A DNA stretch of 64,000 nucleotides from Candidatus Limnocylindrus sp. (lineage in GTDB: Bacteria; Chloroflexota; Limnocylindria; Limnocylindrales; Limnocylindraceae), in assembly GCA_040397235.1 (NCBI GenBank), contig JBBAWH010000006.1:8854-72853 (forward strand). Reading direction: 5' to 3'. The first letter of the stretch is position 1; each line of letters starts with the position of its first letter. The translations under genes and the position numbers were made by a program. The notes beneath the pieces are model-generated. The model saw only the letters and a list, made by a program, of their open reading frames with translations. It did not search any database and had not been told where the DNA came from. Below are positions 34,455-51,607 of this stretch, one piece after another.

Positions 34455-34867
34455 GCACCCTCCTCAGTTGCTCTCGCTGGACTCGTTGCCGGTGGCACCG
34501 GCAGATCGAGTAGCCCTGCGAGGATCGCATGCCCGCGCTCAAAGAGGGCGCGGTACGGCATGGCGCGCACCGCCCCTGCGGCGATCAGGCTCGCCCGCCC
34601 CTCTGGATCGTCGTGCTGGACCAGGGCGAGGACCCGTGCCCCGGTCGCCGCCACGGCCCGAACCGCCCCCTCGGCGTCGTAGGCGCGGGCGGTGGCATCG
34701 ATGGCCACCAGGTCGGTGGGGGTGGCAGGCTGAGCGGCGAGGAGCGCAAGGAGGGGCGCTGGCGTGGTGAATCGCTGGACATCAGCGCCAAGGGTGCGCC
34801 CCTGTCCTTCGAGTCGGGTGGCCCAGATAAGATCGTCGGCCAGCACCAGAAGGCGCGGCGCGGTCAC
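34451..34867 (-). CDS. Stand-alone receiver (REC)-like protein, atypical
   Basis: LLVLADD, DLVAID, AGA pattern; GTGA overlap with korB stop. Confidence 0.6.
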   Translation of the reverse strand: MTAPRLLVLADDLIWATRLEGQGRTLGADVQRFTTPAPLLALLAAQPATPTDLVAIDATARAYDAEGAVRAVAATGARVLALVQHDDPEGRASLIAAGAVRAMPYRALFERGHAILAGLLDLPVPPATSPARATEEGA

Positions 34868-35895
34868 TCGACCGTCCAGGTCTCCCCTGAGGCGAGGAGC
34901 TTCTGTAGGTCGACGGGGCCCTTCGCGGCGCGCGCCGCCTTCGCTCCATCGATCTGCTCCACCAGGAGCTGGTCGTGTGTTGGGCGTGGCACGCGACGGA
35001 AGACGCCAACTGGCACTGGGAAGTCGGGCCACCACATGCGGCTCAAGATCTGCGTGCGCGTGGCATCAGGGTCGGTCTCGTCGTGCACCCAGAGGTCGGC
35101 AACGCTCACGCCGTTCTCGCCAATGGTCACGACCTCTGGTCGTAGACCGTTGAGGCGAATCCCCTTGTTCTTCTCGGCGCCGAAGATCATCGGCTCGCCG
35201 TGCTTCAGCACCAGCATGCGATCCTCTTTCACCGACTTATCGGTGAAGTCGCGCCAGGCGCCGTCGTTGAAGATGTTGCAGTTCTGCAGCACCTCGAGGA
35301 AGGCGGCACCCGAGTGCTCGCCGGCACGATGCATCATCTCTTGCAGGTGCTCGGAGTGCGTATCAACTGATCGAGCGATGAAGCTCGCCTCGGCGGCGGC
35401 AACGAGGTTGAGCGGAATGATCGGCGTTTCGATGGTGCCGAGCGGCGTCGACTTCGTCTTCTTCCCCATCGGCGAGGTTGGCGATGCCTGACCCTTGGTG
35501 AGACCGTAGATGCGGTTGTTGAACATGATCATTTTCATGTCGACGTTGCGGCGCATCGCGTGGATCAGGTGGTTGCCGCCGATGGAGAGGGCGTCACCAT
35601 CACCGGTGATCACCCAGACCATCAGGTCAGGACGCGCCGCCTTGAGGCCAGTTGCAATGGTTGCCGCACGGCCGTGGATCGTATGGAAGCCGTAGGTGTT
35701 CATGTAGTACGGGAGGCGACCCGAGCAGCCGATACCAGAGATGAAAACGATCTTCTCCTTGGCGACGCCGAAGGTAGGCATGGCCTTCTGAGTCTGCGCC
35801 AGGATCGCATAGTCACCGCACCCTGGGCACCAGCGCACATCCTGGTCGGACTCGAAATCCTTCTTCGTCAGCACAGGGAGCTCAGACTGGGTCAC
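34864..35895 (-). CDS. korB: 2-oxoacid:ferredoxin oxidoreductase beta subunit
   Basis: WCPGCGD, SGIGCS, HGR, GDGD, YGLTKGQ.SPT. Confidence 0.93.
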   Translation of the reverse strand: MTQSELPVLTKKDFESDQDVRWCPGCGDYAILAQTQKAMPTFGVAKEKIVFISGIGCSGRLPYYMNTYGFHTIHGRAATIATGLKAARPDLMVWVITGDGDALSIGGNHLIHAMRRNVDMKMIMFNNRIYGLTKGQASPTSPMGKKTKSTPLGTIETPIIPLNLVAAAEASFIARSVDTHSEHLQEMMHRAGEHSGAAFLEVLQNCNIFNDGAWRDFTDKSVKEDRMLVLKHGEPMIFGAEKNKGIRLNGLRPEVVTIGENGVSVADLWVHDETDPDATRTQILSRMWWPDFPVPVGVFRRVPRPTHDQLLVEQIDGAKAARAAKGPVDLQKLLASGETWTVE

Positions 35896-37772
35896 TTTGC
35901 GGCCTCCACACTCTCGCCGAGGATTGACTCGGCCTTCGCCTCAATCTCACCGATCTGGAACGGCTTGCCGCGCACCAGATTGAAGCCCACCGCATCGACC
36001 AGATACTTGGCGCGAATCAGCATGCGCAGCTGGCCGGCATTGAGCTCGGGCATCAGCACGTGCTTGAAGTTCTTCAGCATCGCACCGAGATCGTTCGGGA
36101 GTGGGTTCAGGTAGCGCAGGTGGGCGTGGCTGACGCGCTTGCCGCGCGACTGCAGGCGCTCGACCGCCGAACGAATCGCCCCATAGGTTGAGCCCCAGCC
36201 CAAGATGAGCAGGTCGCCAGTGGTCTCACCATAGATTTCGGTCGGTGGAATGTCGCGGGCGACGCGCGCCACCTTCTCGGCGCGCAACAGGTTCATGCGG
36301 TGGTGGTTATCGGGGTCGTAGCTGACCGTCCCCAACTCGTCGAGCTTCTCGAGGCCGCCGATGCGGTGCTCAAGCCCTGGCGTTCCAGGCACCGCCCACG
36401 GGCGTGCCAGCGTCTCGGGGTCGCGCTGATACGGTCGGAAGCCTGGCTTGTCTGAGGCGGGTGCATTCTCGACCTTGATCGATGGCAGGTCAGCAACGTT
36501 CGGAATGCTCCACGGCTCGGCACCTGTCGCCAAGAAGGCGTCGCTCAAGAAGACAACCGGCGTCATGTGGTGCAGCGCGATGCGCCACGCCTCGATCGCC
36601 ATCGTGAAGCACTCGGCGGGCGTTGCTGGTGCAATCACGGGAATCGGTGAATCGGAGTTGCGGCCGAACATGCTCATCAGCAGGTCGCCCTGCTCGGTCT
36701 TCGTTGGCATACCGGTCGACGGACCGGCGCGCTGCACATCAACAACCACGAGTGGCAGCTCAACCATGACGGCGAGACCGAGCATCTCAGCCTTTAACGC
36801 CATGCCAGGGCCAGAGGTGGTGGTCATGCCCATGGCACCGCCGTATGCGGCACCAACCGCGGCGCCGATCGCCGCGATCTCATCTTCGGACTGCACCGTC
36901 TTAATGCCGAGGTGCTTGTACGACGAGAGCTGATGCAGGATGTCGGAGGCTGGCGTGATCGGATAGCTAGCCAAGAAGAGGTCGCGCTCGGCGAGCTTTG
37001 ACGCCATCACGAAGCCGAGGGCGGTCGCCTCGTTGCCGGTGATGTTGCGATACGTGCCGGGTGGTAGGTGCGCTGCGGCGACGCGGTAGTGCGTGTGGAA
37101 GATCTCGGTCGTCTCACCGAAGGCGTAGCCAGCGTGCAGTGCACGACGGTTCGCCTCGGCGATCGCATCCTTGCCGGCGAACTTCTCGGCGATCCACTTC
37201 TCGGTGCCAGCCATTGAGCGCTCGTAGAGCCAGAACATCACGCCAAGGGCGAAGAAGTTTTTGGAGAGCTCGACCTGCTTGCTGCTGAGGCCGAGGCCCT
37301 CGCAGACACCAGCGACCATCGTTGACATTGGAATCTCGTAGAGGTTGAACCCTTGCAGGCTCTGGTTCTTCAGCGGATCTTCGGCGAAGCCCGCCTTGCG
37401 CAGGTTGATCTCGTTGAAGGCGTCGGTGTTCACGATGATCGCGCCACCTGGAACCAGGTCGCCAAGGTTCACCTTGAGCGCCGCTGGGTTCATGGCGACG
37501 AGCACGTCGGGGCGGTCGCCCGGCGTGTGAATGTCGCCGCTCGAGAAACTGATCTGGAATCCCGAAACGCCAGGGAGCGAGCCGGCTGGTGCGCGAATCT
37601 CGGCCGGGTAGTCGGGCAAGGTCGAGACGTCGTTGCCGAAGAGTGCGGTCGTGGCGGTGAACTGCGAGCCGGTCAGCTGCATCCCGTCGCCCGAGTCGCC
37701 GGCGAAGCGAATCGTGACGCGGTCAAGCTCGGTTACCGTGCCGTGCTGCGCTCCCGAATCGGGGGTGGTCAC
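35892..37772 (-). CDS. korA: 2-oxoacid:ferredoxin oxidoreductase alpha subunit
   Basis: FAGDSGDGMQ, YPITPAS, EDEIAA, TSGPG, QRAGPSTGMPT. Confidence 0.93.
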   Translation of the reverse strand: MTTPDSGAQHGTVTELDRVTIRFAGDSGDGMQLTGSQFTATTALFGNDVSTLPDYPAEIRAPAGSLPGVSGFQISFSSGDIHTPGDRPDVLVAMNPAALKVNLGDLVPGGAIIVNTDAFNEINLRKAGFAEDPLKNQSLQGFNLYEIPMSTMVAGVCEGLGLSSKQVELSKNFFALGVMFWLYERSMAGTEKWIAEKFAGKDAIAEANRRALHAGYAFGETTEIFHTHYRVAAAHLPPGTYRNITGNEATALGFVMASKLAERDLFLASYPITPASDILHQLSSYKHLGIKTVQSEDEIAAIGAAVGAAYGGAMGMTTTSGPGMALKAEMLGLAVMVELPLVVVDVQRAGPSTGMPTKTEQGDLLMSMFGRNSDSPIPVIAPATPAECFTMAIEAWRIALHHMTPVVFLSDAFLATGAEPWSIPNVADLPSIKVENAPASDKPGFRPYQRDPETLARPWAVPGTPGLEHRIGGLEKLDELGTVSYDPDNHHRMNLLRAEKVARVARDIPPTEIYGETTGDLLILGWGSTYGAIRSAVERLQSRGKRVSHAHLRYLNPLPNDLGAMLKNFKHVLMPELNAGQLRMLIRAKYLVDAVGFNLVRGKPFQIGEIEAKAESILGESVEAAK

Positions 37773-40132: not shown

Positions 40133-40375
40133 CTACATCCCCGAGGGCTGATACCCCGCGTCAAGGAACCGAGCGGGGTCGTCCTGGAAGTCGAGGAGGC
40201 AGCCACGCCCGCAGAAGTAGAAGCGCTCCTGCCCAGGGGCGCTCACGTCGAGTGCTCCACGATGGCGGTCGGCCTGGCCGGCAACGGCGAGCCCTGCGAC
40301 TTCAATAGAGGCGGTGAGGGCGTCAGGGGCGATCGTCACCTCCATGCCGCAGACCGGATCGATTGCCACGCTCAC
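40133..40375 (-). CDS. YHS/TRASH domain protein
   Basis: DPVCGMEV ... FYFCGRGC...F..DP. Confidence 0.8.
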   Translation of the reverse strand: MSVAIDPVCGMEVTIAPDALTASIEVAGLAVAGQADRHRGALDVSAPGQERFYFCGRGCLLDFQDDPARFLDAGYQPSGM

Positions 40376-41316
40376 TCTTCACTCCTCTTCCGCTCCGCGA
40401 GGAGCACCTCTCGTCGACGGATCTCCGCGATTGCGGCCGCCGTCTGCGCCTCATCGTATCGCGATTCGGGGCGATCCTCAGACTTTGCCAGCGCGGCCAA
40501 GACCACGAAGATCGCGGCCAGGAAGAGCGCGTCGCCAACGAGCCACATGATCGCGCCGGCGAGCTGCTGATCCTCGAGGGGCGACGGCCCCCAGGTGCGC
40601 TGCAGCGTCAGGTAGTGGGGGTAGAGCGGGGTCGTTGACCACATGATCGCCACACCGAGGAAGCTGTTCTGTGGCATCTGGGTAATGAGGTAGGCCAGCG
40701 CACTCCCGCCGCGAAGGCGGTGCCTGATCGGATCAACAGAGAAGATCGGCGCCCAGAAGAGGAGGGCGGTGCCCAGATAGAGCGAATGCTCCATGTTGTG
40801 GATGAAGGGATCCTCAAGTGCCGCCTCGAACAGGGTCGACAGGTGTGTCCCCCACATCACCGCGATGAGGAGTGTCCATCCGACGAGCGGGTGGCTGATC
40901 ACCCCAACGGCGCGGCTCTGCAAAATGGCGAGGATCCGCGCGCGCCAACGTGGCGAGGCGACGCGCAGGAGCAGGGTGACCGGCCCCGCCTGCAGCAGCA
41001 GGATCGGCACGGGGAAGAGCAGGATGAGGTGCTGAATCATGTGCATCGAGAAGAGGGTGGTGTCGTAGCGCTCGATACCTGACTGCAGCGCTAGGAGAAC
41101 GAAGGCAAGCGCGGCAGCGAAGCTGACCGTGCGGCGACGTGGATACGGGTTCCCCGGATGTTCGCGTGCCACCTGGCGGATCGCACGGGCCCAGAGCAGG
41201 CCAACGAGCACAACCGCAACTGTGACAACGGGTGGCCAGGCCCAGTAGAGGAGCGACTCAGGGGAGAGCTCCGGCGGGATCGGCCCATGGGTCGGGACCA
41301 GCAGCAGATGCGTCAT
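40372..41316 (-). CDS. ctaG: Cytochrome c oxidase assembly protein (caa3 CtaG family)
   Basis: FSMHMIQHLIL, HNMEH, DQQLAGAIMW. Confidence 0.85.
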   Translation of the reverse strand: MTHLLLVPTHGPIPPELSPESLLYWAWPPVVTVAVVLVGLLWARAIRQVAREHPGNPYPRRRTVSFAAALAFVLLALQSGIERYDTTLFSMHMIQHLILLFPVPILLLQAGPVTLLLRVASPRWRARILAILQSRAVGVISHPLVGWTLLIAVMWGTHLSTLFEAALEDPFIHNMEHSLYLGTALLFWAPIFSVDPIRHRLRGGSALAYLITQMPQNSFLGVAIMWSTTPLYPHYLTLQRTWGPSPLEDQQLAGAIMWLVGDALFLAAIFVVLAALAKSEDRPESRYDEAQTAAAIAEIRRREVLLAERKRSEE

Positions 41317-41410
41317 ACCCGCATCTTCGTCCAGTTCGTGATTTTTTGGGCGGCGCTACAATCACCGAGGCAGAATCGACCAGCCCCTCAACTGAAAGGT
41401 GGGAGCAGCC

Positions 41411-41575
41411 ATGAACAAGTACGCCTACGCATTTGGCCTCCTCTTCGTGGTCCTCAGCGCCGTCTATCTCTTCGTCTCGAACGACCTGCAGGGCGCCACG
41501 CTCCTCTTCGCCTTGGGGATTGCCATGGCGACGATGACGCTGATCCTGATCCACGCGATGAACACCGACAGCTAA
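41411..41575 (+). CDS. Small 2-TM protein resembling the N-half of actinobacterial oxidase subunit IV (54 aa)
   Basis: Hand-translated MNKYAYAFGLLFVVLSAVYLFVSNDLQGATLLFALGIAMATMTLILIHAMNTDS; GGGAG RBS; not in the ORF track. Confidence 0.6.
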   Translation: MNKYAYAFGLLFVVLSAVYLFVSNDLQGATLLFALGIAMATMTLILIHAMNTDS

Positions 41576-41590
41576 CGGAGCCACACCGAC

Positions 41591-42676
41591 ATGGAGTTTC
41601 TCCGCTCCCTTCTTGAGTGGGTGATCTCACTCCTTGGGCCATTCGTCTCCCCCGACTGGGGCGCACTCATCAAGCTCATCCCACTCGGCGTCCTTCTTTT
41701 GGTCGTTGCCTTCTACGGCTGGGTCTTCTGGCGCTTCCGCCGCGCCGGGCCTCGTCGCATCGGCATGCCGATCCGCAAGCCACAGGTGCCATCAGGCGTT
41801 CACCTGCCTGGGCCAAGCCTCGCACCCTTCCTGATCTCGGCAGCATCGGCCGCACTCTTCTTCTCCGTGGCACTCGGCGGCCCAGCACTCGCCGTCGCGG
41901 GACTCCTCTTCGTCTTGGCGCTCGTTGCCTGGGGCCGCGAAGCGGTCCGCGAGTACGACGCACTCGGCGCAGGCTCAGCGATGGCGCTGCGCGCTGACGA
42001 TGCCGCAGCAACAACAGCGCCGAACGGCCCACCAGAGGGTGTTCATCTGCCGCCGCCATCGCTCCTGCCACTCCTCGTGAGCGCCGGCGCTGCCGTGATG
42101 CTCTTCGGCGTTGCGGTTGGTCTCGAGTTCGCACTTCTTGGCACGCTCATGACGGCGCTCGCGCTGATTGGCTGGCTCCTTGATGCAGGGCGCGAATATC
42201 GCGCCACCGCCGAGGCCGATACAACTGGCCACCTGGTCAATCCGACGCCACGCAAAATGCCAACGGTGGCCATCGCACTCTTCAGCATGCTCTTCCTCTT
42301 CTTCGCCGGCTCGCAGGCTGGCGTGATCGGCGGGAGCGGCGCAAGCCCGTCACCGAGCGGCGAACCCGTTGCCTGCGCCGAGAGTGGCACCGCGACCGTC
42401 ACGATGTGCGCTGAGCTCATAGCCTTTAATAGCGAATCAATCACGGTGCCGGCTAGTGCGCCATTTACCATCCGCTTCGTAAACTACGACGCAGGAATCC
42501 CGCACAATGTCGCGATCCACGAGGATACGGGCACCGGCCCAGAGATCTACCTCGGCGAGATCTTCAACGGTGCCGATGAGCGCACCTACGACGTGCCCGC
42601 CCTCACCGCCGGGAAGACTTATGTCTACATCTGCACCGTCCACCCGAACATGCTTGGGGCGATCGTCCTGCAGTGA
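41591..42676 (+). CDS. Membrane protein with two GVHLPxPS-TM-TM repeats and a C-terminal type-1 copper cupredoxin
   Basis: Repeats GVHLPGPSLAP and GVHLPPPSLLP; PHNV...CTVHPNM. Confidence 0.78.
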   Translation: MEFLRSLLEWVISLLGPFVSPDWGALIKLIPLGVLLLVVAFYGWVFWRFRRAGPRRIGMPIRKPQVPSGVHLPGPSLAPFLISAASAALFFSVALGGPALAVAGLLFVLALVAWGREAVREYDALGAGSAMALRADDAAATTAPNGPPEGVHLPPPSLLPLLVSAGAAVMLFGVAVGLEFALLGTLMTALALIGWLLDAGREYRATAEADTTGHLVNPTPRKMPTVAIALFSMLFLFFAGSQAGVIGGSGASPSPSGEPVACAESGTATVTMCAELIAFNSESITVPASAPFTIRFVNYDAGIPHNVAIHEDTGTGPEIYLGEIFNGADERTYDVPALTAGKTYVYICTVHPNMLGAIVLQ

Positions 42677-43194
42677 CCAGCCTGGCGCGCATCCGTCGCG
42701 TCGCAGTCGCACTCCTCGCCGCTAGCCTGATCGCCGCCTGCGGCGGCCCCACCGCCAGCAGCGACGACCTTCTGGGCCGAACGATGCGGATCGGCGAGGC
42801 GCACCCCCTCACTGACCCGACCGCTACGTTCACCTCGTGGCCAGAGGTTGCGGGTGGCAACCAGCGCATCCTGTTGAACTTCTGGGCGAGCTGGTGCATC
42901 CCCTGCCGCGATGAGATTCCGCTCCTCTTCGACTACTCCGCCAGCTTCGCCCCTGGCGCCACAGTGCTCGGCGTTCTCTATAGAGATTCGATTGGTCCGG
43001 CAGCAGCCACCGCGGCGGAGCTCGGCGCAACCTGGGTGACGCTGATCGATGCCGACGGCGCTATCGCTGCGCAGGTGCCGGTAAATGCCGCGCCGCTGAC
43101 CCTGCTCCTTGACGCAAGCGGCGTGGTGCTCGACTACCGCGTCGGTCCGTTCACCAGCGTTGCAGAGATCGCCGAATTCGCCGACGGCCCATAG
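42673..43194 (+). CDS. TlpA/ResA-like thiol-disulfide oxidoreductase lipoprotein
   Basis: NFWASWCIPC; IAAC lipobox. Confidence 0.85.
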   Translation: MTSLARIRRVAVALLAASLIAACGGPTASSDDLLGRTMRIGEAHPLTDPTATFTSWPEVAGGNQRILLNFWASWCIPCRDEIPLLFDYSASFAPGATVLGVLYRDSIGPAAATAAELGATWVTLIDADGAIAAQVPVNAAPLTLLLDASGVVLDYRVGPFTSVAEIAEFADGP

Positions 43195-45060: not shown

Positions 45061-46587
45061 CTAGCGGGCGGATGCGCCCTTGCGGCCGAGCTTGGCCCCG
45101 ACCCACGCACGGAAGCGCTCACGCTGACCGTAGGCGACTGCGGCACCGAGCATGATCACGAAGTTGAGTGTCCATGCGCCCGCTGCAGAGAGGAAGCCGA
45201 TCTGCTGACCAACCTCACCCTGGAGGGCCAAGCCAGGAACGGTGAGGCCGAAGAGGCCGACGCGGAAGACGGGCGCCTTTGGCGATGTGCCGGCAGAGAG
45301 TGCCCCCGCGCTATATGCGCCAGAGGCATCCGCACCGCCGAGAAGGAGCACATGTGCACCGATCACAACGCCGCTCGCGCCGACTCGCGCGCCGTCGGCT
45401 GGGAGGTTGCTCAACTCAACAGCCGTCCAGGTGGTGATACCTGTTGCGGCGGCTGGCGCCGCCCAAAGCACGCTTGTTGTTGCCGCTCCACCAATCGTGC
45501 CACCTGCGACATAGAGGGTGCCGTTGGCACTCCACATCGCAGCACCGTCGCGTGGGGTTGGCAGGTTGCTCTCTAATGCCCCCTCCTCCCAGCGGAAGAT
45601 CGTGCCGATCTCGGCATCACCCTGCGCCTCAGCGTCGGGATTCACCACTGGGGCGCTGTGTGCCTCACCAACTGCAGGGGCAACGGCGATGTCGCCGCGA
45701 AGCGCTGCGGCGGCCGGTCCGCTCGCGTCATCACCGCCCCAGACGTAGATTGAATCGCCAACAACCGCCGCGGCGGCGAAGCTTCGCGGTTCCGGAAGCT
45801 CCATGAAGGTTGCCCACGGCTCGAGTTCGCCGCTGGCGCCGAGCTTCGCCTTCCATACGGTGGTGGTTGGTGAACGGTCAGTCCCCTCGCCGCCGAGCAC
45901 CACGATTCCGTCAGAGACGACGGTGACCGACGCGCCAGATCGTGCGGCCGGCAACTCAAGTGCGTCGAGTCGCTCCCATGCAGTGATCAAACCACTGGTT
46001 GCGTCAGGTGTTCCTACGTAGACCGATGCGGTTGCAGGTGCGGTGTCAGATGCGCCACCGATGATGTATGCCTTGCCGGCGAAGAAGGCCACGCCCGCAT
46101 GGGCGCGCGCCTCAGGGAGCGGCGTGCCAGCAGCCCAAGCGCTCAGCCCCGCGGCATCAATGGTTGCAACGGAGACGTTCGTCGTGGCGAGGCGTGTTGC
46201 CGCGCCGCTCGTGCCGCCGACGTAGTAGAGATGTGAGCCAGCCTGCAGTAGGGAGCCATCAACGCCATCACCTGGCAGGTCTCCCTCGGTCGCGCTCTTC
46301 CAGGGGATCAGTGCGCCAGCGGGTGCTGGGCATGGGAGTCCCTCATTCTCCGCAGGGCAGATGTTCACGAGGGAGGCGAGGTTGAGCCCAAGCTCAACGG
46401 TTGGCGAGACGGTCAGGTAGTAGGCGCGGTCTGGGATGTAGCCGAGCATCAAGATGATGACGAGGGTCCAGAGCACTGAACGGACACCAGCCCAGCCCCA
46501 GCCATCAGCGTCGAGGAGGCCGAAGAGCACGCGGCGCGGCGCGACGGCTCCTGGGCCAATCGCGCGTGGATCGCCGCTGCCGCTCAT
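45061..46587 (-). CDS. Membrane-anchored Kelch-repeat (beta-propeller) protein
   Basis: About six YxxGG...W...LP..R repeats flanked by N- and C-terminal TM helices; overlaps the upstream stop. Confidence 0.8.
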   Translation of the reverse strand: MSGSGDPRAIGPGAVAPRRVLFGLLDADGWGWAGVRSVLWTLVIILMLGYIPDRAYYLTVSPTVELGLNLASLVNICPAENEGLPCPAPAGALIPWKSATEGDLPGDGVDGSLLQAGSHLYYVGGTSGAATRLATTNVSVATIDAAGLSAWAAGTPLPEARAHAGVAFFAGKAYIIGGASDTAPATASVYVGTPDATSGLITAWERLDALELPAARSGASVTVVSDGIVVLGGEGTDRSPTTTVWKAKLGASGELEPWATFMELPEPRSFAAAAVVGDSIYVWGGDDASGPAAAALRGDIAVAPAVGEAHSAPVVNPDAEAQGDAEIGTIFRWEEGALESNLPTPRDGAAMWSANGTLYVAGGTIGGAATTSVLWAAPAAATGITTWTAVELSNLPADGARVGASGVVIGAHVLLLGGADASGAYSAGALSAGTSPKAPVFRVGLFGLTVPGLALQGEVGQQIGFLSAAGAWTLNFVIMLGAAVAYGQRERFRAWVGAKLGRKGASAR

Positions 46588-47597
46588 CACTTCACCGTCA
46601 GCTTGCCGACCATGTTTGGGTGCACGGTGCAGATAAACGCATAGGTGCCGGCCGTGAGGGCTGGAACGTTATAGGTGCGCGTGCCAATGCCCGCGAAGAT
46701 CTCACCCTTGAAGACTTCGGCTCCTGTTGCAGTACCAACGTGGATCGCGACGTTGTGTGGGACTCCAACATTGTTGTTGCTAAAGACGATGGTGAACAGA
46801 GCACCAGCCGCCACCTCAAAGGCACTCTGCTCGAAGGCAATCGGATTCACGGCGCTAATCTGGTAGGTCTCCCCCGTTCCGCCAGATGGCATCGGAGTGG
46901 CGCTTCCCGTTGGCGTCGGGGATACGGCGAAGGCATCTTTCCAGCAGGCAGGGACCGGAGTCGCGTCTGCAGCAGGCGCGTACGCGACGTCGCGCCAGCC
47001 GGTGACCTCCACCATTTCGCCCGTTGCGGGATCCCTCACCTCAACGGTGTCCGTATTGGTTGCACGCACCCAGGCGATCAGCTCTTCAATCTCGCGGTAG
47101 TTCATCGGACCACCATTGGTGTCGGACCACACGCCCATCAGTGAATTTGCATCTCCGCAGATGTAGCGCCCGCCAACGGTGAGCACATTCAGCAGGTACT
47201 GCGGCGTGAGGTGGGCGAGCAACTTCCCCTGGTCGTTGAGCACTGGCCCGATGCCGCCCTGGCCCTGTGCGCCGTGGCAGCGGGCGCAGTTCGCCTCAAA
47301 GAGGTTGTAGCCGCGCTTCACCGTCTCCAGGTACTGCTCGCGCTTTGCTGCGTCGAGGCGCGACGAGCCGGTCACGCCCGGGAGACCCTGGTCGTAGAAG
47401 GCGTAGACGATGATGAAGAGGGTGACGATGGCGATGCCGAGAAGTGCCGCCAATCGCGATGAGCCGCTCTGGTTGACGATCTTTGCGGCGCGGTCTGCAG
47501 TGAGGCCGCGCGTTTGGATCTGGCTCGGGCTCGAGAGGCGCGGCACCGGCGTGCTCACCTTCTCGCTCGGCACTGGGAGCTGCTTCTCGTCGCTCAT
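46587..47597 (-). CDS. Membrane-anchored cytochrome c fused to a C-terminal cupredoxin
   Basis: TM helix, CARCH, distal Met (LMGVW), P/T linker, PHNV...CTVHPNM. Confidence 0.88.
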   Translation of the reverse strand: MSDEKQLPVPSEKVSTPVPRLSSPSQIQTRGLTADRAAKIVNQSGSSRLAALLGIAIVTLFIIVYAFYDQGLPGVTGSSRLDAAKREQYLETVKRGYNLFEANCARCHGAQGQGGIGPVLNDQGKLLAHLTPQYLLNVLTVGGRYICGDANSLMGVWSDTNGGPMNYREIEELIAWVRATNTDTVEVRDPATGEMVEVTGWRDVAYAPAADATPVPACWKDAFAVSPTPTGSATPMPSGGTGETYQISAVNPIAFEQSAFEVAAGALFTIVFSNNNVGVPHNVAIHVGTATGAEVFKGEIFAGIGTRTYNVPALTAGTYAFICTVHPNMVGKLTVK

Positions 47598-48266
47598 CTA
47601 GATGCAACCTGTGGCGGCGCGTGGCGCCTCAATCCCTGGTGCGCCGATCGCGAGCGGTACCGTGCCGAGGCTGATCTTGCCGGTGTCGAGGGTCAGAACG
47701 CCGTCGTTGTCGACCACCGCAGCGAAGCGGTCCATGCCGCGTGCGGCAGGGCCGAGCCCCTCCGCCTTGGTGCCGAGTCGGTCGTAGCGGCTGCCGTGAC
47801 AGGCGCACTCGAGCCAATAGGTCTTGATGCAGGGGTTCGGCTTGCAGCCAAGGTGTGGGCAGCGCTGGTAGAGGGCGCGAACATTCAGTGCGGCACCATC
47901 GCCGGTTGCATCTTCGCCGGCCACGAACTCTTGGCGGTTCGGATCAACCAACATGATGAAGGCGCGCGCATCTTGCACATAGGCGGGGTAGCCCTCGGCA
48001 ATGGGGAGTCCCGCGTTGGCGTCGATCAGTGACTTGAGTGTGCCGACGCGAATCTTGCCGCCGAACCCTCCTTCAAGGTTTGGCCAGAGGAAGCCGAGGG
48101 TTCCGGCGGTCACCTGGACCAGCCAGAGCCCGAAGCCTGCGCCGATCGAGGTTCGTAGCAGTCGTCGTCGTGAGATCCCCTTGACCTCCTCGTGGCGCAG
48201 CGCCTTGATGGTCTGCGCGGTGAGGGCCTTCGGCGTGTCGCTCGGCTCAACGCTGTAATGGCTCAC
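47598..48266 (-). CDS. Rieske 2Fe-2S subunit
   Basis: Tat-like SRRRLL + TM, CPHLGC, CACHGSRY. Confidence 0.93.
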   Translation of the reverse strand: MSHYSVEPSDTPKALTAQTIKALRHEEVKGISRRRLLRTSIGAGFGLWLVQVTAGTLGFLWPNLEGGFGGKIRVGTLKSLIDANAGLPIAEGYPAYVQDARAFIMLVDPNRQEFVAGEDATGDGAALNVRALYQRCPHLGCKPNPCIKTYWLECACHGSRYDRLGTKAEGLGPAARGMDRFAAVVDNDGVLTLDTGKISLGTVPLAIGAPGIEAPRAATGCI

Positions 48267-48279
48267 CGCACTCCTCCGA

Positions 48280-48867
48280 TCACAAGCTGAAGAAGAAGCC
48301 GGTCGACCACGGCAGGATGAAGGCGTAGCCAGGGCCGCGGAAGAAGATACCGATGAAGGTCACCGCAAGGCCAACAGCCCAGAGCACGGAGAAGAGCGTC
48401 ACCTCGAGCTTGCGCTCCGATGGCTTCGTACTGTGGATGTTGCGGCGATCAAGATACGGAATGAGCGCCGAGCCAACCAGCACAGCAGCTGGCGTCAGCG
48501 CACCAGCAACGGTTGGGTGGAAATAGGCGAGCAGCTCCTGCAGGCCCAAGAAGTACCACGGCGCCTTCGCTACGGCGGGCGTGACGTTCGGGTTGGCGAG
48601 CTCTTCGAGCGGAGCATTGATGAAGAGGCCAAGCAGTAGCAGGAAGATGCTCATCGCCACCGCCGACAAGAACTCGATCGTCAGAAGGTGTGGCCAGGTC
48701 AGGACCGTGTCATCTGGCTCCTTCTGCACACGAACGACGGCGTCTTGCTTCACGAGTGCGAGGAGTCGGTACGGTCGTGCCGCCATCGGCACGCGCTGCT
48801 TGTCGATCTCCGTCTGGCGCGACGGATCTACCGGCAGGGAGCTCGCTGGGCGCTGCTCGTCACTCAT
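48280..48867 (-). CDS. Cytochrome b C-terminal subunit (subunit IV-like)
   Basis: WPHLL, ANPNVTP, KAPWYFLG, PYLDR. Confidence 0.88.
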   Translation of the reverse strand: MSDEQRPASSLPVDPSRQTEIDKQRVPMAARPYRLLALVKQDAVVRVQKEPDDTVLTWPHLLTIEFLSAVAMSIFLLLLGLFINAPLEELANPNVTPAVAKAPWYFLGLQELLAYFHPTVAGALTPAAVLVGSALIPYLDRRNIHSTKPSERKLEVTLFSVLWAVGLAVTFIGIFFRGPGYAFILPWSTGFFFSL

Positions 48868-48870
48868 AGA

Positions 48871-49599
48871 TCACAGCGGTCCGCTGATGCCGCCGTCCTT
48901 GCGGATCCGCCAGAAGTGGACCGCGAGAAAGACTGCCGCCAAGAGTGGGAAGACCATCACGTGCAGCACATAGAAGCGAAGCAGCGTGTTCTGCCCTACC
49001 TCGAGGCCGCCCAGCAGGAGCAGCTTCGATGGGGTGTTGAGGAGCGGCGCGTAGCCGGCCATGTTCGAGCCGATCGTGATCGCCCAGTAGGCGATCTGGT
49101 CCCACGGCAGCAGGTAGCCGGTGAAGCTGAGCATCAGGGTAAGGAAGAGCAGGATCACGCCAACGACCCAGTTGAATTCGCGTGGTGGCTTGTAAGCGCC
49201 GTGATAGAAGACGCGCATCATGTGCAGGAAGACGAAGAAGACCATGAGGTGCGCGCCCCAGCGGTGGATGTTGCGCGTGATCTGTCCGAATGGAATCAGC
49301 GTTTGAATCTTGAGAATGTCAGAGTAGGCCTGCGTCGCCGACGGCGCGTAGAAGAACATCAGGTAGACGCCCGTCACGGTAAGGACCAGGAAGAGGAAGA
49401 AGCTCAAGCCGCCGAGGCAGAAGGTGTAGGCGAACTTCACCGCATGCTGGCGCACGCGCACCGGATGGAGGTGCAGGAAGACGTTGTTCATCACCGCATA
49501 GGCGCGACTTCGCTCGTCGTTGGGGTAGGCGTTGCGGAAGACGGAGCGCCAGGCTGCAGACCTGCGAACCGCCTGATCGACCCTCGCCAGTAGGCTCAC
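48871..49599 (-). CDS. Cytochrome b6-type N-terminal subunit
   Basis: FCLGG (heme ci Cys), HRWGAH...LH, H-x14-H in helix D, GYLLPWDQ, GISGPL; GTG 49599 overlaps the upstream stop. Confidence 0.93.
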   Translation of the reverse strand: MSLLARVDQAVRRSAAWRSVFRNAYPNDERSRAYAVMNNVFLHLHPVRVRQHAVKFAYTFCLGGLSFFLFLVLTVTGVYLMFFYAPSATQAYSDILKIQTLIPFGQITRNIHRWGAHLMVFFVFLHMMRVFYHGAYKPPREFNWVVGVILLFLTLMLSFTGYLLPWDQIAYWAITIGSNMAGYAPLLNTPSKLLLLGGLEVGQNTLLRFYVLHVMVFPLLAAVFLAVHFWRIRKDGGISGPL

Positions 49600-51458
49600 T
49601 GTGCCCCTCCCGCTACGCCAGCGACTCCGGCCAACTGACCATCCCGGTAGGACTCCTTGTAGAGGCGTCCGTCCGAGCTGATCTCTTGTAGTTCGAACCT
49701 CTCCATCGTAATCGCGTCGAAGGGACAGCGCTTTACGCAGAGGGCGCAGCGGATGCAGCGCTCCTCGTCTAGGAGCATTGCCGCACCGTTCTCCCAGCCG
49801 TACGCCTCGGAGAGTTCGGGAAGGGCGCCCTCCGACTTGAGCTGGTTGATGTCGACCATGTGGATGACCCCCTCGGGGCATACGTCGGCGCAGGCGCCGC
49901 AGAGGACGCAGCGCATCGGGTCGAACCAGATGTTGTAGTTGCACATGAGGCAACGGGTGCTCTCGGCGACTGCCTGCTGCGCGCCGTAGCCGAGCTCAAC
50001 CTGGGTGGCAAAGTTCTCTGTCGGGTCCCCTGACGGAAGGCGCGCGGCCAGCGGCAGCACCGGGATGTGCTGGCGTGGGATGCGGTCGTAGAACTCGGGC
50101 ATCTCATGGCGCCACGAGCTGGTGATCTTCACGTTGGTGTCGACGGTGATCTCGGCCTGTCCGTCGAGGTAGCGGTCGATGGCGTATGCGCACTTCTTGG
50201 CGTGGCCCGCCGCCTCGATCATGGTGGCAGGGCCGGTGACGAAGTCGCCGCAGGCCCAGACCCCCTTGATGTTGGTGGCGTAGGTGGCCGGGTCAACCTT
50301 TACGCGACCGCGCGCGACTTCGAAGGTGCTCTCAACCGGGAGGAAGCCTAGCTCGGAGGCTTGCGACACGGCGGGGATCACGGTGTCAGCTGGCAGGATG
50401 AACTCGGAGCCTTCAATTGGAACTGGGCTGCGGCGACCAGATGCGTCTGGCTCGCCGAGACGATTCTTGATCATGCGCACACCGGTGATGTTGCCGTTCT
50501 CCCCGATCACTTCGAGTGGCGAGACGAGGAAGTCCATGCGCACACCCTCGCGTTCCGTCTCGCCGAGCTCCTCCTCGTCAACGACGAGCTCGGAACGGGT
50601 GCGACGATAGGCGATGGTGACGCGCTCTGCACCGTGGCGGAGCGAGGTGCGTGAGCAATCCATGGCGGTATAGCCGCCACCGATGACGACCACATCTTTG
50701 CCGACGCTGAGCGGCTTGCCGAGGTTGGCATCTTTCATGAAGTCCACGCCGTAGACGAGTCCGTTCAGATCGGCGCCCGGAACATCGAGGGCAACGGCGT
50801 TCATGGCGCCGGCGCAGATCGCGATCGCGTTGTACTGCTGCTGCAACTGCTCGAAGGTGATGTCGCGACCGACCTCGGTGTTGTAGACAAACTTCACGCC
50901 GAGTCGCTCAATGAGGCGCACGTCGGTCTCGATCGCCTCGCGCGGAAGTCGGAAGGCAGGAACGCCGATGAGCATCGTGCCACCGCCGTACGGCAGGCTG
51001 TCGTAGACGGTGACCTGGTAGCCCTTCACGGCAAGCTCGCGCGCAACGGAGAGGCCGGCAGGGCCAGCACCAATCACGGCGACGCTCTCGGCGCGTGGCG
51101 TGATCTCTGGCGCAACGTCGGGGATGCCCGACGCGGCGTGCCACTCAACAAGGAAGCGCTTCATCGCGCGAATCGCGAGCGGTCGATCGATGTCGCCGCG
51201 GCGACAGGCGCGCTCGCACGGCGCGGAGCAGACGTACGAACACATGGCGGCAATCGGGTTCGGCTCGCGGGAGAGGAGGTAGCCCTCTTCGAACCGACCC
51301 TCGGCGGCCAGGTTGAGGTAGCCGCGGCAGTTGGTGCCGACAGGGCAGGCCTCTTGGCACTCGATGTTGCACTGAAGCCAGGAGGCGTCTACTGGCTGGA
51401 CGAGGAAGTCCTGCGTTTCAAGCGTCACAGTGAGCCTTTCGGTGTTGCCGCGAGTCAT
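49596..51458 (-). CDS. GltD/NfnB-like FAD/NAD(P)H oxidoreductase with N-terminal Fe-S clusters and a C-terminal 2[4Fe-4S] domain
   Basis: CQEACP, CSYVCSAPCERAC, GAGPAG, GGGYTAMD + YRR, RCLMC, CVLCGACADVCP, CIRCALCVKRCP. Confidence 0.9.
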   Translation of the reverse strand: MTRGNTERLTVTLETQDFLVQPVDASWLQCNIECQEACPVGTNCRGYLNLAAEGRFEEGYLLSREPNPIAAMCSYVCSAPCERACRRGDIDRPLAIRAMKRFLVEWHAASGIPDVAPEITPRAESVAVIGAGPAGLSVARELAVKGYQVTVYDSLPYGGGTMLIGVPAFRLPREAIETDVRLIERLGVKFVYNTEVGRDITFEQLQQQYNAIAICAGAMNAVALDVPGADLNGLVYGVDFMKDANLGKPLSVGKDVVVIGGGYTAMDCSRTSLRHGAERVTIAYRRTRSELVVDEEELGETEREGVRMDFLVSPLEVIGENGNITGVRMIKNRLGEPDASGRRSPVPIEGSEFILPADTVIPAVSQASELGFLPVESTFEVARGRVKVDPATYATNIKGVWACGDFVTGPATMIEAAGHAKKCAYAIDRYLDGQAEITVDTNVKITSSWRHEMPEFYDRIPRQHIPVLPLAARLPSGDPTENFATQVELGYGAQQAVAESTRCLMCNYNIWFDPMRCVLCGACADVCPEGVIHMVDINQLKSEGALPELSEAYGWENGAAMLLDEERCIRCALCVKRCPFDAITMERFELQEISSDGRLYKESYRDGQLAGVAGVAGGAQ

Positions 51459-51607
51459 TGCTTGCAGGCCTAAGGGTAGCAGGGGCTCCCCAAAAGCGTG
51501 CTCAACGCGATAGTTGCAATCTGGCCACTTTTCCTTGTACTGAACGTGAATTTCTGCCAGAATCGCCGCCTAAGGCGGTGCCGGCGTCCCCCCAAAGGCA
51601 CCGCCTT

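What the first reader, a model, noticed from the sequence alone, without database searches (positions are those of the whole stretch)
45061..51458. Rieske/cytochrome b complex with a built-in NAD(P)H flavo-Fe-S subunit
Seen: one tightly packed operon (gaps of 13 nt or less, or overlaps): GltD/NfnB-like oxidoreductase with an extra 2[4Fe-4S] domain -> b6-type cytochrome b with heme-ci Cys -> subunit IV -> Rieske -> cyt c-cupredoxin -> Kelch protein. No gltB or nfnA partner is present. Known: heme ci sits at the cytoplasmic Qi site, b6f interacts with FNR/ferredoxin in cyclic flow, and anammox Rieske/b operons encode NAD(P) oxidoreductases proposed to couple quinol oxidation to NAD(P) reduction. 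Inference: an apparently aerobic heterotroph (oxidase assembly genes, photolyase) has a complex III that exchanges electrons directly with NAD(P)H or ferredoxin, either as an NADPH entry point or by bifurcation/reverse flow. KorAB and fdxA 5-10 kb away could supply reduced ferredoxin. This is the strongest candidate for an undescribed system here.
Basis: partly seen in the sequence, partly recalled or inferred. Interest (0 to 1): 0.87.

Follow-up and report, generated by a model that had tools for sequence, protein, structure and literature searches.

The report
Complex III with built-in NADP(H) flavoprotein
A freshwater Chloroflexota bacterium (Candidatus Limnocylindrus) encodes its only complex III in one operon with an NADP(H)-type iron-sulfur flavoprotein, an arrangement already described for anammox bacteria but here found in an apparent aerobe.

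Summary
On the minus strand, 45061-51458 holds six tightly packed genes (overlaps of 4 nt, gaps of 0-13 nt). In order they are a GltD/NfnB-like FAD/NAD(P) protein with four Fe-S sites, a b6-type cytochrome b with the heme-cn Cys, subunit IV (APWY Qo motif), Rieske, a cytochrome c-cupredoxin fusion and a membrane Kelch protein.

Linkage is conserved in every Limnocylindria locus examined (9 of 9, then 23 of 23). Same-order genomes without the flavoprotein also lack the cytochrome b (0 of 5). In Acidimicrobiia, 48 of 57 homologous operons keep only a free-standing 2[4Fe-4S] protein, homologous to the flavoprotein's C-terminal domain, directly before cytochrome b. That domain therefore looks like the docking and wire element.

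The genome has no GltB, no evident NfnA, one cytochrome b, one COX1 and no NrfD (ACIII).

The "undescribed system" claim fails. Anammox Rieske/cytochrome b complexes carry the same kind of subunit (PMC12954380), and Dibrova et al. 2017 note the linkage "in many other cases".

Electron-flow direction is unresolved: quinol-driven NADP+ reduction or NADPH feeding the Qi site. The complex prediction gave no answer.

Verdict: a real feature, a new member of a known but biochemically untested kind.

The parts
49596..51458 (-). GltD/NfnB-like flavoprotein, 620 aa. It has an N-terminal two-cluster domain, FAD and NAD(P) Rossmann folds (GxGxxG at 130-135, GGGxxAxD at 260-267, YRR at 284-286) and a C-terminal 2[4Fe-4S] domain. 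No hydrophobic segment was found.
   Evidence: Pfam. NCBIfam best match NF009410 at 432 bits, below its cut-off of 516. Cofactor motifs invariant in 21 sequences. Best PDB match 9bov/9bp5. Maximum KD19 of 1.52.
49689..49952 (-). C-terminal 2[4Fe-4S] ferredoxin-like domain of the flavoprotein (about residues 503-590). Eight Cys (517, 520, 523, 527, 568, 571, 574, 578) are invariant. I propose it as the docking and wire element to cytochrome b.
   Evidence: Alignment A2 of 66 sequences from two phyla. A free-standing homologue lies directly upstream of cytochrome b in 48 of 57 non-Limnocylindria loci.
48871..49599 (-). b6-type four-helix cytochrome b, 242 aa. Its GTG start overlaps the flavoprotein stop. 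It carries the CxGG Cys61 for heme cn and four His heme ligands. His43, His45 and His52 ahead of helix A are invariant.
   Evidence: NCBIfam NF040969 cytb_ExtP at 297 bits, above its cut-off of 290.
48280..48867 (-). Subunit IV, 195 aa, with three hydrophobic helices. The Qo motif is KAPWY (APWY type). The WPHLLxxE motif is invariant.
   Evidence: APWY clade as defined in PMC4122944.
47598..48266 (-). Rieske [2Fe-2S] protein, 222 aa. It has a twin-arginine N-terminus (SRRRLL), cluster boxes CPHLGC and CACHGSRY, and both the Ser and the Tyr of high-potential Rieske proteins.
   Evidence: The two best PDB matches are 9rk4 and 9rk3, the anammox Rieske proteins Kuste4569 and Kustd1480.
46587..47597 (-). 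Membrane-anchored monoheme cytochrome c (CARCH) fused to a type-1 cupredoxin (His, Cys, His and Met ligands readable). Taken as the P-side electron exit.
   Evidence: One N-terminal hydrophobic helix at residues 49-67.
45061..46590 (-). Kelch beta-propeller protein, 509 aa, with a hydrophobic helix near each end. Its start overlaps the cytochrome c stop. Role unknown; it may be a periplasmic accessory or assembly subunit.
   Evidence: Present downstream in order-level relatives and not found in class-level relatives or Acidimicrobiia.
51459..51607 (.). A 149-nt intergenic stretch between the upstream AhpC/TSA gene and the flavoprotein start. Presumed promoter region, by inference only.
   Evidence: No promoter scan was run.

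Best explanation
The six genes encode one membrane complex. It is the organism's only quinol:cytochrome c/cupredoxin oxidoreductase, a b6-type Rieske/cytochrome b complex of the APWY clade. On its cytoplasmic face it carries a soluble GltD/NfnB-like subunit with FAD, an NADP(H) site and four Fe-S clusters.

This subunit docks through its C-terminal 2[4Fe-4S] domain. That wires the low-potential chain (heme bL, heme bH, heme cn) to NADP+/NADPH.

Shown here: gene content, cofactor motifs, conserved linkage, co-loss, and conservation of the 2[4Fe-4S] element next to this cytochrome b in two phyla.

Inferred: physical binding and electron transfer.

My preferred direction, held weakly, is the one proposed for anammox. 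Quinol oxidation at Qo sends one electron to the high-potential Rieske protein, then cytochrome c, cupredoxin and the aa3-type oxidase. The other electron goes across the membrane to the Fe-S chain, FAD and NADP+. The wire is likely reversible.
For: 1. Translational coupling. The flavoprotein stop and cytochrome b start overlap as GTGA.

2. Conserved gene order.
- The order flavoprotein, cytochrome b, subunit IV, Rieske, cytochrome c holds in 9 of 9 Limnocylindria-class loci that I picked by hand from 276 genomes with a match.
- It also holds in 23 of 23 Limnocylindria-type loci among the 80 returned by an independent cytochrome b search. One of these is cut by its contig end.

3. Co-loss. Seven of 23 same-order (family f2) genomes lack the close flavoprotein orthologue. 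I tested 5 of the 7, and none has a close cytochrome b.

4. The ferredoxin-like domain travels with this cytochrome b. In 48 of the other 57 loci, mostly Acidimicrobiia, a protein of about 137 aa lies directly upstream of cytochrome b. It is homologous only to residues of about 510-590 of the flavoprotein. All eight Cys are invariant in 66 sequences.

5. Conservation. In 14 order-level loci the flavoprotein is on average 81% identical. That compares with cytochrome b 83%, subunit IV 69%, Rieske 57% and cytochrome c 44%.

6. No alternative partner. There is no GltB and only a PyrK-like protein in a pyr cluster.

7. Cofactor motifs are invariant, including the YRR motif. I recall YRR as the NADPH-type signature of GltD and NfnB.

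8. Links to the anammox complexes.
- The Rieske protein has the Ser and Tyr that raise potential.
- Its two best PDB matches are the anammox Rieske proteins, measured at +303 and +335 mV.
- The flavoprotein's best PDB match, 9bov/9bp5, is the entry the anammox paper found for Kuste4570.

9. Genome context. A complex I operon with NuoE, NuoF, NuoD and NuoH is present, so NADH oxidation does not need this module. The genome has one cytochrome b, one COX1 and no NrfD family.

10. Weak expression hint. Four of 4 laid RNA-library runs hold a contig bridging the flavoprotein/cytochrome b junction at 92-97% likeness. DNA carry-over is not excluded.
Against: - No direct evidence of binding exists for this organism.
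- The genome also has PntB and G6PD, so no NADPH shortage forces this route.
- Ten of 11 other Chloroflexota homologues with the same architecture (39-46% identity) are not next to cytochrome b.
- Dictyobacter alpinus keeps its homologue about 2.9 Mb from its cytochrome b operon. The protein family therefore also works unlinked, or on its own.
- Acidimicrobiia manage with the ferredoxin-like subunit alone, so the flavoprotein is not needed for the core complex.
- One genome (G359) has the flavoprotein plus cytochrome b with no detectable subunit IV. This fits a plain NAD(P)H:quinone enzyme better than Qo bifurcation.
- The quinone type is unknown. Neither MenB nor MqnA/D was found, so the energetic argument cannot be closed.
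- Pushing an electron to -320 mV against the membrane potential is marginal by my own estimate.
Confidence: 0.5

Rival explanations
1. Same complex, opposite direction. The flavoprotein is an NADPH entry module. NADPH reduces FAD. Electrons run through the four Fe-S clusters to heme cn/bH and reduce quinone at the Qi site. This is a non-pumping NADPH:quinone reductase built onto complex III, and the Q cycle then passes the electrons to cytochrome c.
For: - The step is exergonic and needs no special tuning.
- Genome G359 has the flavoprotein next to a b6-type cytochrome b with no subunit IV detected, the layout of a membrane-anchored dehydrogenase. Dibrova et al. take that as the ancestral form (PMC5600118, section 9).
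- The same genome's complex I operon also carries a GltD-like module. This suggests NADPH is routinely fed to quinone-reactive complexes.
- Subunit IV keeps an invariant His and Glu (WPHLLxxE). This matches the His/Glu pair near heme cn that the anammox paper says would suit quinone reduction.
Against: - It wastes about 250 mV and spends NADPH, in a 1.18-Mb streamlined genome that keeps PntB and G6PD to make NADPH.
- The anammox authors reject this direction for the same energetic reason (PMC12954380).
- The high-potential Rieske signature is not needed for it.
Confidence: 0.25
2. The flavoprotein is a soluble NADPH-dependent Fe-S oxidoreductase with its own substrate, such as a soluble ferredoxin or a small molecule. 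It is merely co-transcribed with complex III and does not bind it.
For: - Homologues with the same architecture of about 600 aa are widespread and mostly unlinked to cytochrome b (10 of 11 other Chloroflexota loci; Dictyobacter).
- The Atlas lists look-alike clusters in Pseudomonadota, Acidobacteriota, Gemmatimonadota and Actinomycetota.
- There is no transmembrane segment.
Against: - GTGA coupling to cytochrome b.
- Linkage kept down to 47-56% identity across the class.
- Co-loss with cytochrome b.
- The ferredoxin-like domain alone stays glued to this cytochrome b in another phylum.
- Conservation nearly equals that of cytochrome b.
- According to Dibrova 2017's account of de Almeida 2016, anammox complexes containing both subunits are expressed.
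Confidence: 0.12
3. The 2[4Fe-4S] domain is the working part. It takes electrons from soluble reduced ferredoxin, made for example by the nearby KorAB, and passes them to heme cn and quinone, giving ferredoxin:quinone reductase activity like that once proposed for b6f. The GltD part only equilibrates this node with NADPH, in the manner of NfnB.
For: - KorAB-type oxidoreductase lies at 34864-37772.
- Acidimicrobiia keep only the ferredoxin-like subunit.
- The flavoprotein's nearest solved relatives are Nfn-type enzymes that handle ferredoxin.
Against: - No ferredoxin-binding feature was identified.
- A second route for such electrons may exist at the unusual complex I module.
- This reading is pure inference.
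Confidence: 0.1

Closest known systems
Anammox Rieske/cytochrome b complexes Kuste4569-4574 and Kustd1480-1485 of Kuenenia stuttgartiensis (Kartal et al. 2013 as cited; Hauser et al. 2025, PMC12954380)
   Same: - b6-type four-helix cytochrome b with heme cn, separate subunit IV and a Rieske protein.
- A cytoplasmic NAD(P) oxidoreductase with FAD and four Fe-S clusters encoded beside cytochrome b.
- The Rieske protein has the Ser (and Tyr) signature.
- Our Rieske protein's two best PDB matches are these two proteins.
- The same nearest solved relative, 9bp5, for the flavoprotein.
   Different: - The P side here is a monoheme cytochrome c-cupredoxin fusion plus a Kelch protein, not hexa- or octaheme cytochromes or an HAO-like protein.
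- Subunit IV has three hydrophobic helices, not five (against section 13 of the paper).
- The host has an oxidase and no anammox chemistry.
- Here it is the only Rieske/cytochrome b complex, not one of three.
- I could not align the anammox sequences themselves, because none was obtainable.
'Subfamily G' short cytochromes b with neighbouring NAD(P)-binding Fe-S oxidoreductases (Dibrova et al. 2013, 2017) and the 'APWY clade' (Kao and Hunte 2014)
   Same: CxGG motif, split cytochrome b, APWY Qo motif, and linkage to a large NAD(P)/Fe-S oxidoreductase. Chloroflexi and Actinobacteria are listed in the APWY clade.
   Different: - Those papers give the pattern in general terms.
- The main text of the 2017 paper does not mention Chloroflexi (0 occurrences).
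- Its Figure S1 and the 2013 paper were not available to me (supplements closed).
- Kao and Hunte suggest reverse operation, which fits poorly with a sole complex III in an oxidase-bearing organism.
Bfu-type NfnABC of Caldicellulosiruptor saccharolyticus (PDB 9bov/9bp5), and NfnB/GltD/DPD small-subunit folds
   Same: The N-terminal two-cluster domain plus FAD/NADPH folds. Best PDB match E 4e-108 over residues 29-513.
   Different: Those are soluble enzymes with NuoE/F-like or NfnA or GltB partners. Here no such partner is found, and a C-terminal 2[4Fe-4S] domain and a cytochrome b neighbour take their place.
Chloroplast/cyanobacterial cytochrome b6f with bound FNR
   Same: The b6 fold and heme cn at the N side. 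An NADP-linked flavoenzyme at the N side was reported to co-purify (Zhang et al. 2001, as cited in PMC5600118).
   Different: FNR is an unrelated fold with no Fe-S wire, is not encoded in the operon, and works through soluble ferredoxin.
Geobacter ExtO/ExtP/ExtQ Rieske/cytochrome b module
   Same: The cytochrome b scores above the NCBIfam cut-off for cytb_ExtP. Subunit IV resembles ExtQ.
   Different: The ext cluster has multiheme cytochromes and a porin, and no flavoprotein is listed among its products (PMC5877670).

Membership tests
Rieske/cytochrome b complex, b6-type (split cytochrome b) | Four-helix cytochrome b with two His pairs at b6 positions, with 14 residues between the helix D histidines | tested here: met
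   His112, 126, 213 and 228 align with His86, 100, 187 and 202 of cytochrome b6 chains 6rqf_I and 1q90_B. They are invariant in 66 sequences.
Rieske/cytochrome b complex, b6-type (split cytochrome b) | CxGG cysteine for covalent heme cn | tested here: met
   Cys61 in TFCLGG aligns with Cys35 of b6 and is invariant. Heme attachment itself cannot be tested here.
Rieske/cytochrome b complex, b6-type (split cytochrome b) | Separate subunit IV with a Qo (PEWY-type) motif | tested here: met
   PF00032 match. KAPWY is invariant in 66 sequences.
Rieske/cytochrome b complex, b6-type (split cytochrome b) | Rieske [2Fe-2S] subunit with CxH and CxxH boxes, exported by Tat | tested here: met
   PF00355 match. 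CPHLGC, CACHGS and SRRRLL read.
APWY clade of cytochrome bc complexes (Kao and Hunte 2014) | APWY in place of PEWY | tested here: met
   definition from PMC4122944.
Anammox-type Rieske/cytochrome b complex with an NAD(P) oxidoreductase subunit | NAD(P)/FAD/multi-Fe-S oxidoreductase gene inside the operon next to cytochrome b | tested here: met
Anammox-type Rieske/cytochrome b complex with an NAD(P) oxidoreductase subunit | Four Fe-S sites leading to FAD | tested here: met
   This is at motif level only. N-terminal Cys34, 38, 77, 81 and 85 and the C-terminal eight Cys are invariant, and Cys503 and Cys506 are invariant as well.
Anammox-type Rieske/cytochrome b complex with an NAD(P) oxidoreductase subunit | Multiheme (hexa- or octaheme) cytochrome c on the P side | tested here: not met
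   One CxxCH plus a cupredoxin domain.
Anammox-type Rieske/cytochrome b complex with an NAD(P) oxidoreductase subunit | Five-helix subunit IV | tested here: not met
   Three hydrophobic helices in 195 aa by a simple hydropathy scan.
Anammox-type Rieske/cytochrome b complex with an NAD(P) oxidoreductase subunit | Flavoprotein physically part of the membrane complex | not testable with these tools
   This needs co-purification or a structure.
Glutamate synthase small subunit (GltD) | Partner large subunit GltB in the genome | tested here: not met
   PF01645 gave only one 20.5-bit match in a 393-aa frame. The control rang in 14 of 14 genomes. The genome is 93.5% complete.
NfnB of NfnAB transhydrogenase | Partner NfnA (FAD/[2Fe-2S] PyrK-like protein), usually adjacent | tested here: not met
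   The one DHODB_Fe-S_bind protein sits between pyrC-like and pyrE-like genes and best matches PyrK families below their cut-offs. A moonlighting role cannot be excluded.

The most novel reading that the evidence does not exclude
In abundant aerobic freshwater bacteria, the only complex III may be a Qo-bifurcating quinol:(cytochrome c + NADP+) oxidoreductase. Respiration to oxygen would then make NADPH directly, without spending proton-motive force.

The 2[4Fe-4S] element would be a so far unnamed, ancestral cytoplasmic subunit of APWY-clade complexes. It is free-standing in Acidimicrobiia and fused to a GltD-like flavoprotein in Limnocylindria (and, by the literature, present in anammox). It would turn heme cn into an electron gate to the cytoplasm.

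Together with the NfnA-like module in this genome's complex I operon, this would point to a general class of NADP(H)/Fe-S plug-ins on the N side of respiratory complexes.
Probability: 0.25. Interest if true: 0.85.

Novelty: new member of a known kind. Interest (0 to 1): 0.55.

Why it matters
Nobody has yet shown biochemically what a Rieske/cytochrome b complex with an NAD(P) oxidoreductase subunit does. The only studied hosts are slow-growing anammox bacteria with three such complexes and unusual chemistry.

Here the same core is the single complex III of a small-genome, oxidase-bearing lineage that is common in lakes. Its P-side exit is simple: one heme c and one copper. That makes the open question directly testable in a simpler background. 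The question is whether the Q-cycle's low-potential electron can be diverted to NADP+, or whether NADPH is fed into Qi.

The Acidimicrobiia variant narrows the docking element to a domain of about 90 residues. If the wire is real, textbook schemes of aerobic electron transport in two abundant freshwater groups need an extra branch.

Tried and rejected
Complex prediction. I sent cytochrome b x2, subunit IV (residues 28-195) x2 and the flavoprotein's C-terminal 176 residues, each with a 66-row alignment. The score was 0.06 against a mark of 0.32, and the verdict was 'no answer'. I count it neither for nor against binding.

I used the record titles from the search for related loci instead. I could not obtain any anammox sequence, so homology to Kuste4570/4571 rests on the paper's descriptions and on shared PDB neighbours.

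Natural flavoprotein-cytochrome b fusions. A local BLAST of the five other operon proteins against all 270 stored proteins gave 0 hits.

Quinone type. PF02621 and TIGR01929 both gave nothing in the own genome, so it stays unresolved.

Glu65 of subunit IV. I tried to map it onto Phe40 of b6f subunit IV, but the printed alignments did not include a b6f chain. It is left open.

GltD or NfnB identity. Rejected for lack of partners.

Geobacter ext-type system. Rejected, because no flavoprotein is listed among the ext products and the P-side module differs.

RNA runs. All 18 RNA rows held small shares (0.05-0.09). Only the four I laid are used, and only for what their contigs bridge.

Literature searches bearing on 'not in print for Limnocylindria': (main text of PMC13212565: one 'cytochrome' hit, unrelated). 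Supplements, including Figure S1 of Dibrova 2017, were closed, and Dibrova 2013 is not held. Either may already list Chloroflexota cases.

Full report
**What is there.** The interval 45061-51458 is a six-gene minus-strand operon.

Pfam and NCBIfam identify, in order of transcription:
- a 620-aa GltD/NfnB-like protein, with Fer4_20 at residues 28-110, Pyr_redox_2 at 125-419 and two Fer4 at about 510-590
- a 242-aa b6-type cytochrome b
- subunit IV
- a Rieske protein
- a cytochrome c fused to a plastocyanin/amicyanin-type cupredoxin
- a Kelch-repeat protein

The cytochrome b GTG start overlaps the flavoprotein stop as GTGA. The other junctions are 3, 13 and 0 nt, and a 4-nt overlap.

A hydropathy scan gives:
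- no membrane segment in the flavoprotein
- three clear segments in cytochrome b (helix B falls below the threshold)
- three in subunit IV
- one N-terminal anchor in the cytochrome c fusion
- one segment near each end of the Kelch protein

**Cofactor sites.** Against solved cytochrome b6 (6rqf, 1q90), Cys61 aligns with Cys35, the heme-cn cysteine. His112, 126, 213 and 228 align with His86, 100, 187 and 202.

Subunit IV carries KAPWY, invariant in 66 sequences. This places the complex in the APWY clade of Kao and Hunte 2014 (PMC4122944, passages read). That clade holds delta-proteobacteria, Chloroflexi, Nitrospirales, Planctomycetes and Actinobacteria.

The Rieske boxes read CPHLGC and CACHGSRY, with both the Ser and the Tyr that raise potential (role of these residues as described in PMC12954380).

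In the flavoprotein, the following are invariant across 21 orthologues and paralogues:
- the FAD GxGxxG motif
- the second Rossmann motif GGGxxAxD, with YRR at 284-286
- the N-terminal cysteines
- ten C-terminal cysteines

That YRR marks NADPH specificity is my recollection of GltD and NfnB, not a tool result.

**The organism and its other genes.** The closest flavoprotein homologues are named Candidatus Limnocylindrus or Limnocylindrales. Related loci carry the same names. The assembly has 1.18 Mb in 15 contigs and is 93.5% complete.

| Searched in the own genome | Result |
|---|---|
| Cytochrome b | one |
| COX1 | one |
| NrfD family (ACIII) | none |
| Complex I subunits NuoD, NuoH, NuoE, NuoF | present |
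| PntB | present |
| G6PD | present |
| MenB | none |
| MqnA/D | none |
| GltB | one marginal 20.5-bit match |
| DHODB_Fe-S_bind (NfnA/PyrK type) | one PyrK-like protein in a pyr cluster |

This operon is therefore the only candidate quinol:cytochrome c route. The flavoprotein also has no GltB or evident NfnA partner.

The window's neighbours fit aerobic respiration:
- AhpC/TSA upstream
- CtaG
- a thioredoxin-like protein
- a second cupredoxin protein
- a KorAB-type 2-oxoacid:ferredoxin oxidoreductase downstream

**Is the linkage conserved?** A search of 401 Chloroflexota genomes found a GltD-like match in 276. I picked 20 loci by hand, taking the best hits of different families, and scanned them with the six window proteins.
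- All 9 Limnocylindria-class loci have flavoprotein, cytochrome b, subunit IV, Rieske and cytochrome c in that order. Flavoprotein identity is 47-98%.
- Kelch and the cupredoxin part appear only at genus and order level.
- Of the 11 other loci (39-46% identity, same length and domains), one (G359) has cytochrome b adjacent and 10 do not.

An independent cytochrome b-based scan of 185,579 species genomes returned 80 loci.
- All 23 Limnocylindria-type loci have the flavoprotein directly upstream. One is cut by its contig end.
- In family f2 of the same order, 7 of 23 genomes lack the close flavoprotein orthologue. None of the 5 I tested has a close cytochrome b. This is whole-operon loss, which is expected of linked genes but still consistent with one unit.

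**The informative variant.** The other 57 loci are mostly Acidimicrobiia, with cytochrome b 59-67% identical.
- 48 have, directly upstream of cytochrome b, a small gene that matches only residues of about 510-590 of the flavoprotein. In L045 it is a 137-aa protein with Fer4 domains only.
- In a 66-sequence alignment spanning both phyla, the eight cluster cysteines are invariant.
- Three complete Acidimicrobiia genomes have only an ordinary GltD of about 490 aa elsewhere.
- Nine loci show no such gene. One of them has no upstream DNA, and five are other Chloroflexota. Among these is Dictyobacter alpinus, which keeps a 613-aa homologue about 2.9 Mb away.

The 2[4Fe-4S] element, not the flavoprotein as a whole, is therefore the part that stays with this cytochrome b. 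I read it as the docking and wire domain.

Across 14 order-level loci the flavoprotein is as conserved as cytochrome b (81% against 83% mean identity). It is far more conserved than Rieske (57%) or cytochrome c (44%).

**Expression hint.** Contigs from four RNA libraries of river, lake and freshwater samples were laid at 92% likeness or more. Each run includes a contig bridging the flavoprotein/cytochrome b junction. Contigs cannot prove a single transcript, and DNA carry-over is possible.

**What is known.** Hauser et al. 2025 (PMC12954380; abstract, passages and sections 13-14 read) describe two Kuenenia complexes.
- They have a b6-like cytochrome b, a subunit IV-like protein, a Rieske protein, multiheme cytochromes and a cytoplasmic NAD(P) oxidoreductase.
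- Four Fe-S clusters lead to FAD.
- The Rieske potentials are +303 and +335 mV.
- AlphaFold3 models place the reductase over the cytochrome b dimer, with a possible extra heme on His43.
- The standing proposal is that Qo bifurcation makes NAD(P)H.

Our Rieske protein's two best PDB matches are exactly those two proteins, 9rk4 and 9rk3. Our flavoprotein's best PDB match, 9bov/9bp5, is the entry they found for Kuste4570. Our cytochrome b has invariant His43, His45 and His52 ahead of helix A. I could not align these to Kuste4571.

Dibrova et al. 2017 (PMC5600118, section 9 read) write that subfamily G short cytochromes b co-occur with large NAD(P)-binding Fe-S oxidoreductases. They state that their tree shows this 'in many other cases'.

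My searches found no paper discussing this for Limnocylindria. Supplements and the 2013 paper were out of reach.

**How it most likely works.** I take the six products as one complex. The flavoprotein sits on the N side through its 2[4Fe-4S] domain, so that hemes bH and cn exchange electrons with Fe-S, FAD and NADP(H).

For direction I lean to quinol-driven NADP+ reduction, for these reasons:
- the high-potential Rieske signature
- the presence of a separate NADH-oxidising complex I
- the parallel with anammox

That lean is weak, for these reasons:
- the genome already has PntB and G6PD
- the quinone is unknown
- the energetics are marginal once the membrane potential is counted
- G359's two-gene module looks like a plain NAD(P)H:quinone enzyme

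The opposite direction, a ferredoxin-entry role, and mere co-transcription are kept as rivals.

**Verdict.** It is not a new kind. It is a new member, in an aerobic streamlined freshwater lineage and with a simple heme c/copper exit, of a kind known from anammox bacteria and flagged in comparative work. No function has been shown for that kind. The Acidimicrobiia ferredoxin-only form and the GltD-like module in this genome's complex I operon are the most interesting by-products.

Noticed in passing
G000:C2:85499-88099 (= L102:6499-9099, + strand), outside the window: The genome's complex I operon runs NuoC, NuoD, NuoH, NuoE, NuoF, then an 866-aa protein, then NuoJ/L/M/N-like genes. The 866-aa protein has a NuoG-type N-terminal [2Fe-2S] domain, a GltD-like Fer4_20 plus Pyr_redox_2 core, and Fer4_Nqo3 with two Fer4. 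It is 31% identical to the window's flavoprotein over residues 30-583. It resembles the large subunit of Bfu-type NfnABC, sitting where NuoG/NuoI would be.
   Followed up: partly
L018:8393-11407 (minus strand; G244:C69): In another Chloroflexota genome, a 1004-aa open frame inside a nuo operon appears to join a NuoH-like N-terminus to a GltD-like/2[4Fe-4S] protein (42% identity to the window's). I judged the NuoH part from the first residues only. It was not scanned against Pfam.
   Followed up: no
L045:6522-6935 and 47 further loci among L045-L101: Acidimicrobiia and other Actinomycetota carry a free-standing 2[4Fe-4S] protein of about 137 aa directly upstream of a b6-type cytochrome b, subunit IV, Rieske, cytochrome c operon. 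It has a conserved TDANPPMPEF-like N-terminus and an HGYxYGxR-like C-terminus. My searches found no description of such a complex III subunit.
   Followed up: partly
L017:7684-10360 (minus strand; G359:C6): A two-gene module: a 614-aa GltD-like/2[4Fe-4S] protein followed by a b6-type cytochrome b (54% identity, CxGG kept), then a response regulator. No subunit IV homologue was found in this 98%-complete genome with the window's protein as query.
   Followed up: partly
window 34864-37772 (minus strand): A KorAB-type 2-oxoacid:ferredoxin oxidoreductase (POR, POR_N and TPP_enzyme_C domains) in an oxidase-bearing genome. It implies a pool of reduced ferredoxin that must be re-oxidised.
   Followed up: no
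window 40372-43194: A respiratory assembly neighbourhood. CtaG (caa3 assembly factor) lies at 40372-41316. A 361-aa protein with a C-terminal cupredoxin domain lies at 41591-42676; it is 49% identical to the operon's cupredoxin and has a weak Cyt_c_ox_IV match. A thioredoxin-like AhpC/TSA-fold protein lies at 42673-43194.
   Followed up: no
whole genome G000: Neither MenB (TIGR01929) nor MqnA/D (PF02621) was found in this 93.5%-complete genome, although it has complex I, complex III and an oxidase. The source and type of quinone are unexplained.
   Followed up: no
G142, G160, G169, G196, G178 (same order, family f2): These genomes of 2.6-3.4 Mb lack both the flavoprotein orthologue and the cytochrome b orthologue. 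The whole operon has been lost or replaced in genera g5 and g6. What serves as their complex III was not examined.
   Followed up: no
window 45061-46590: The Kelch beta-propeller protein has a membrane helix near each end and is translationally coupled to the cytochrome c gene. It is conserved at 37-42% identity in 11 order-level loci. It is not found in class-level relatives or in Acidimicrobiia. Its role in the complex is unknown.
   Followed up: partly
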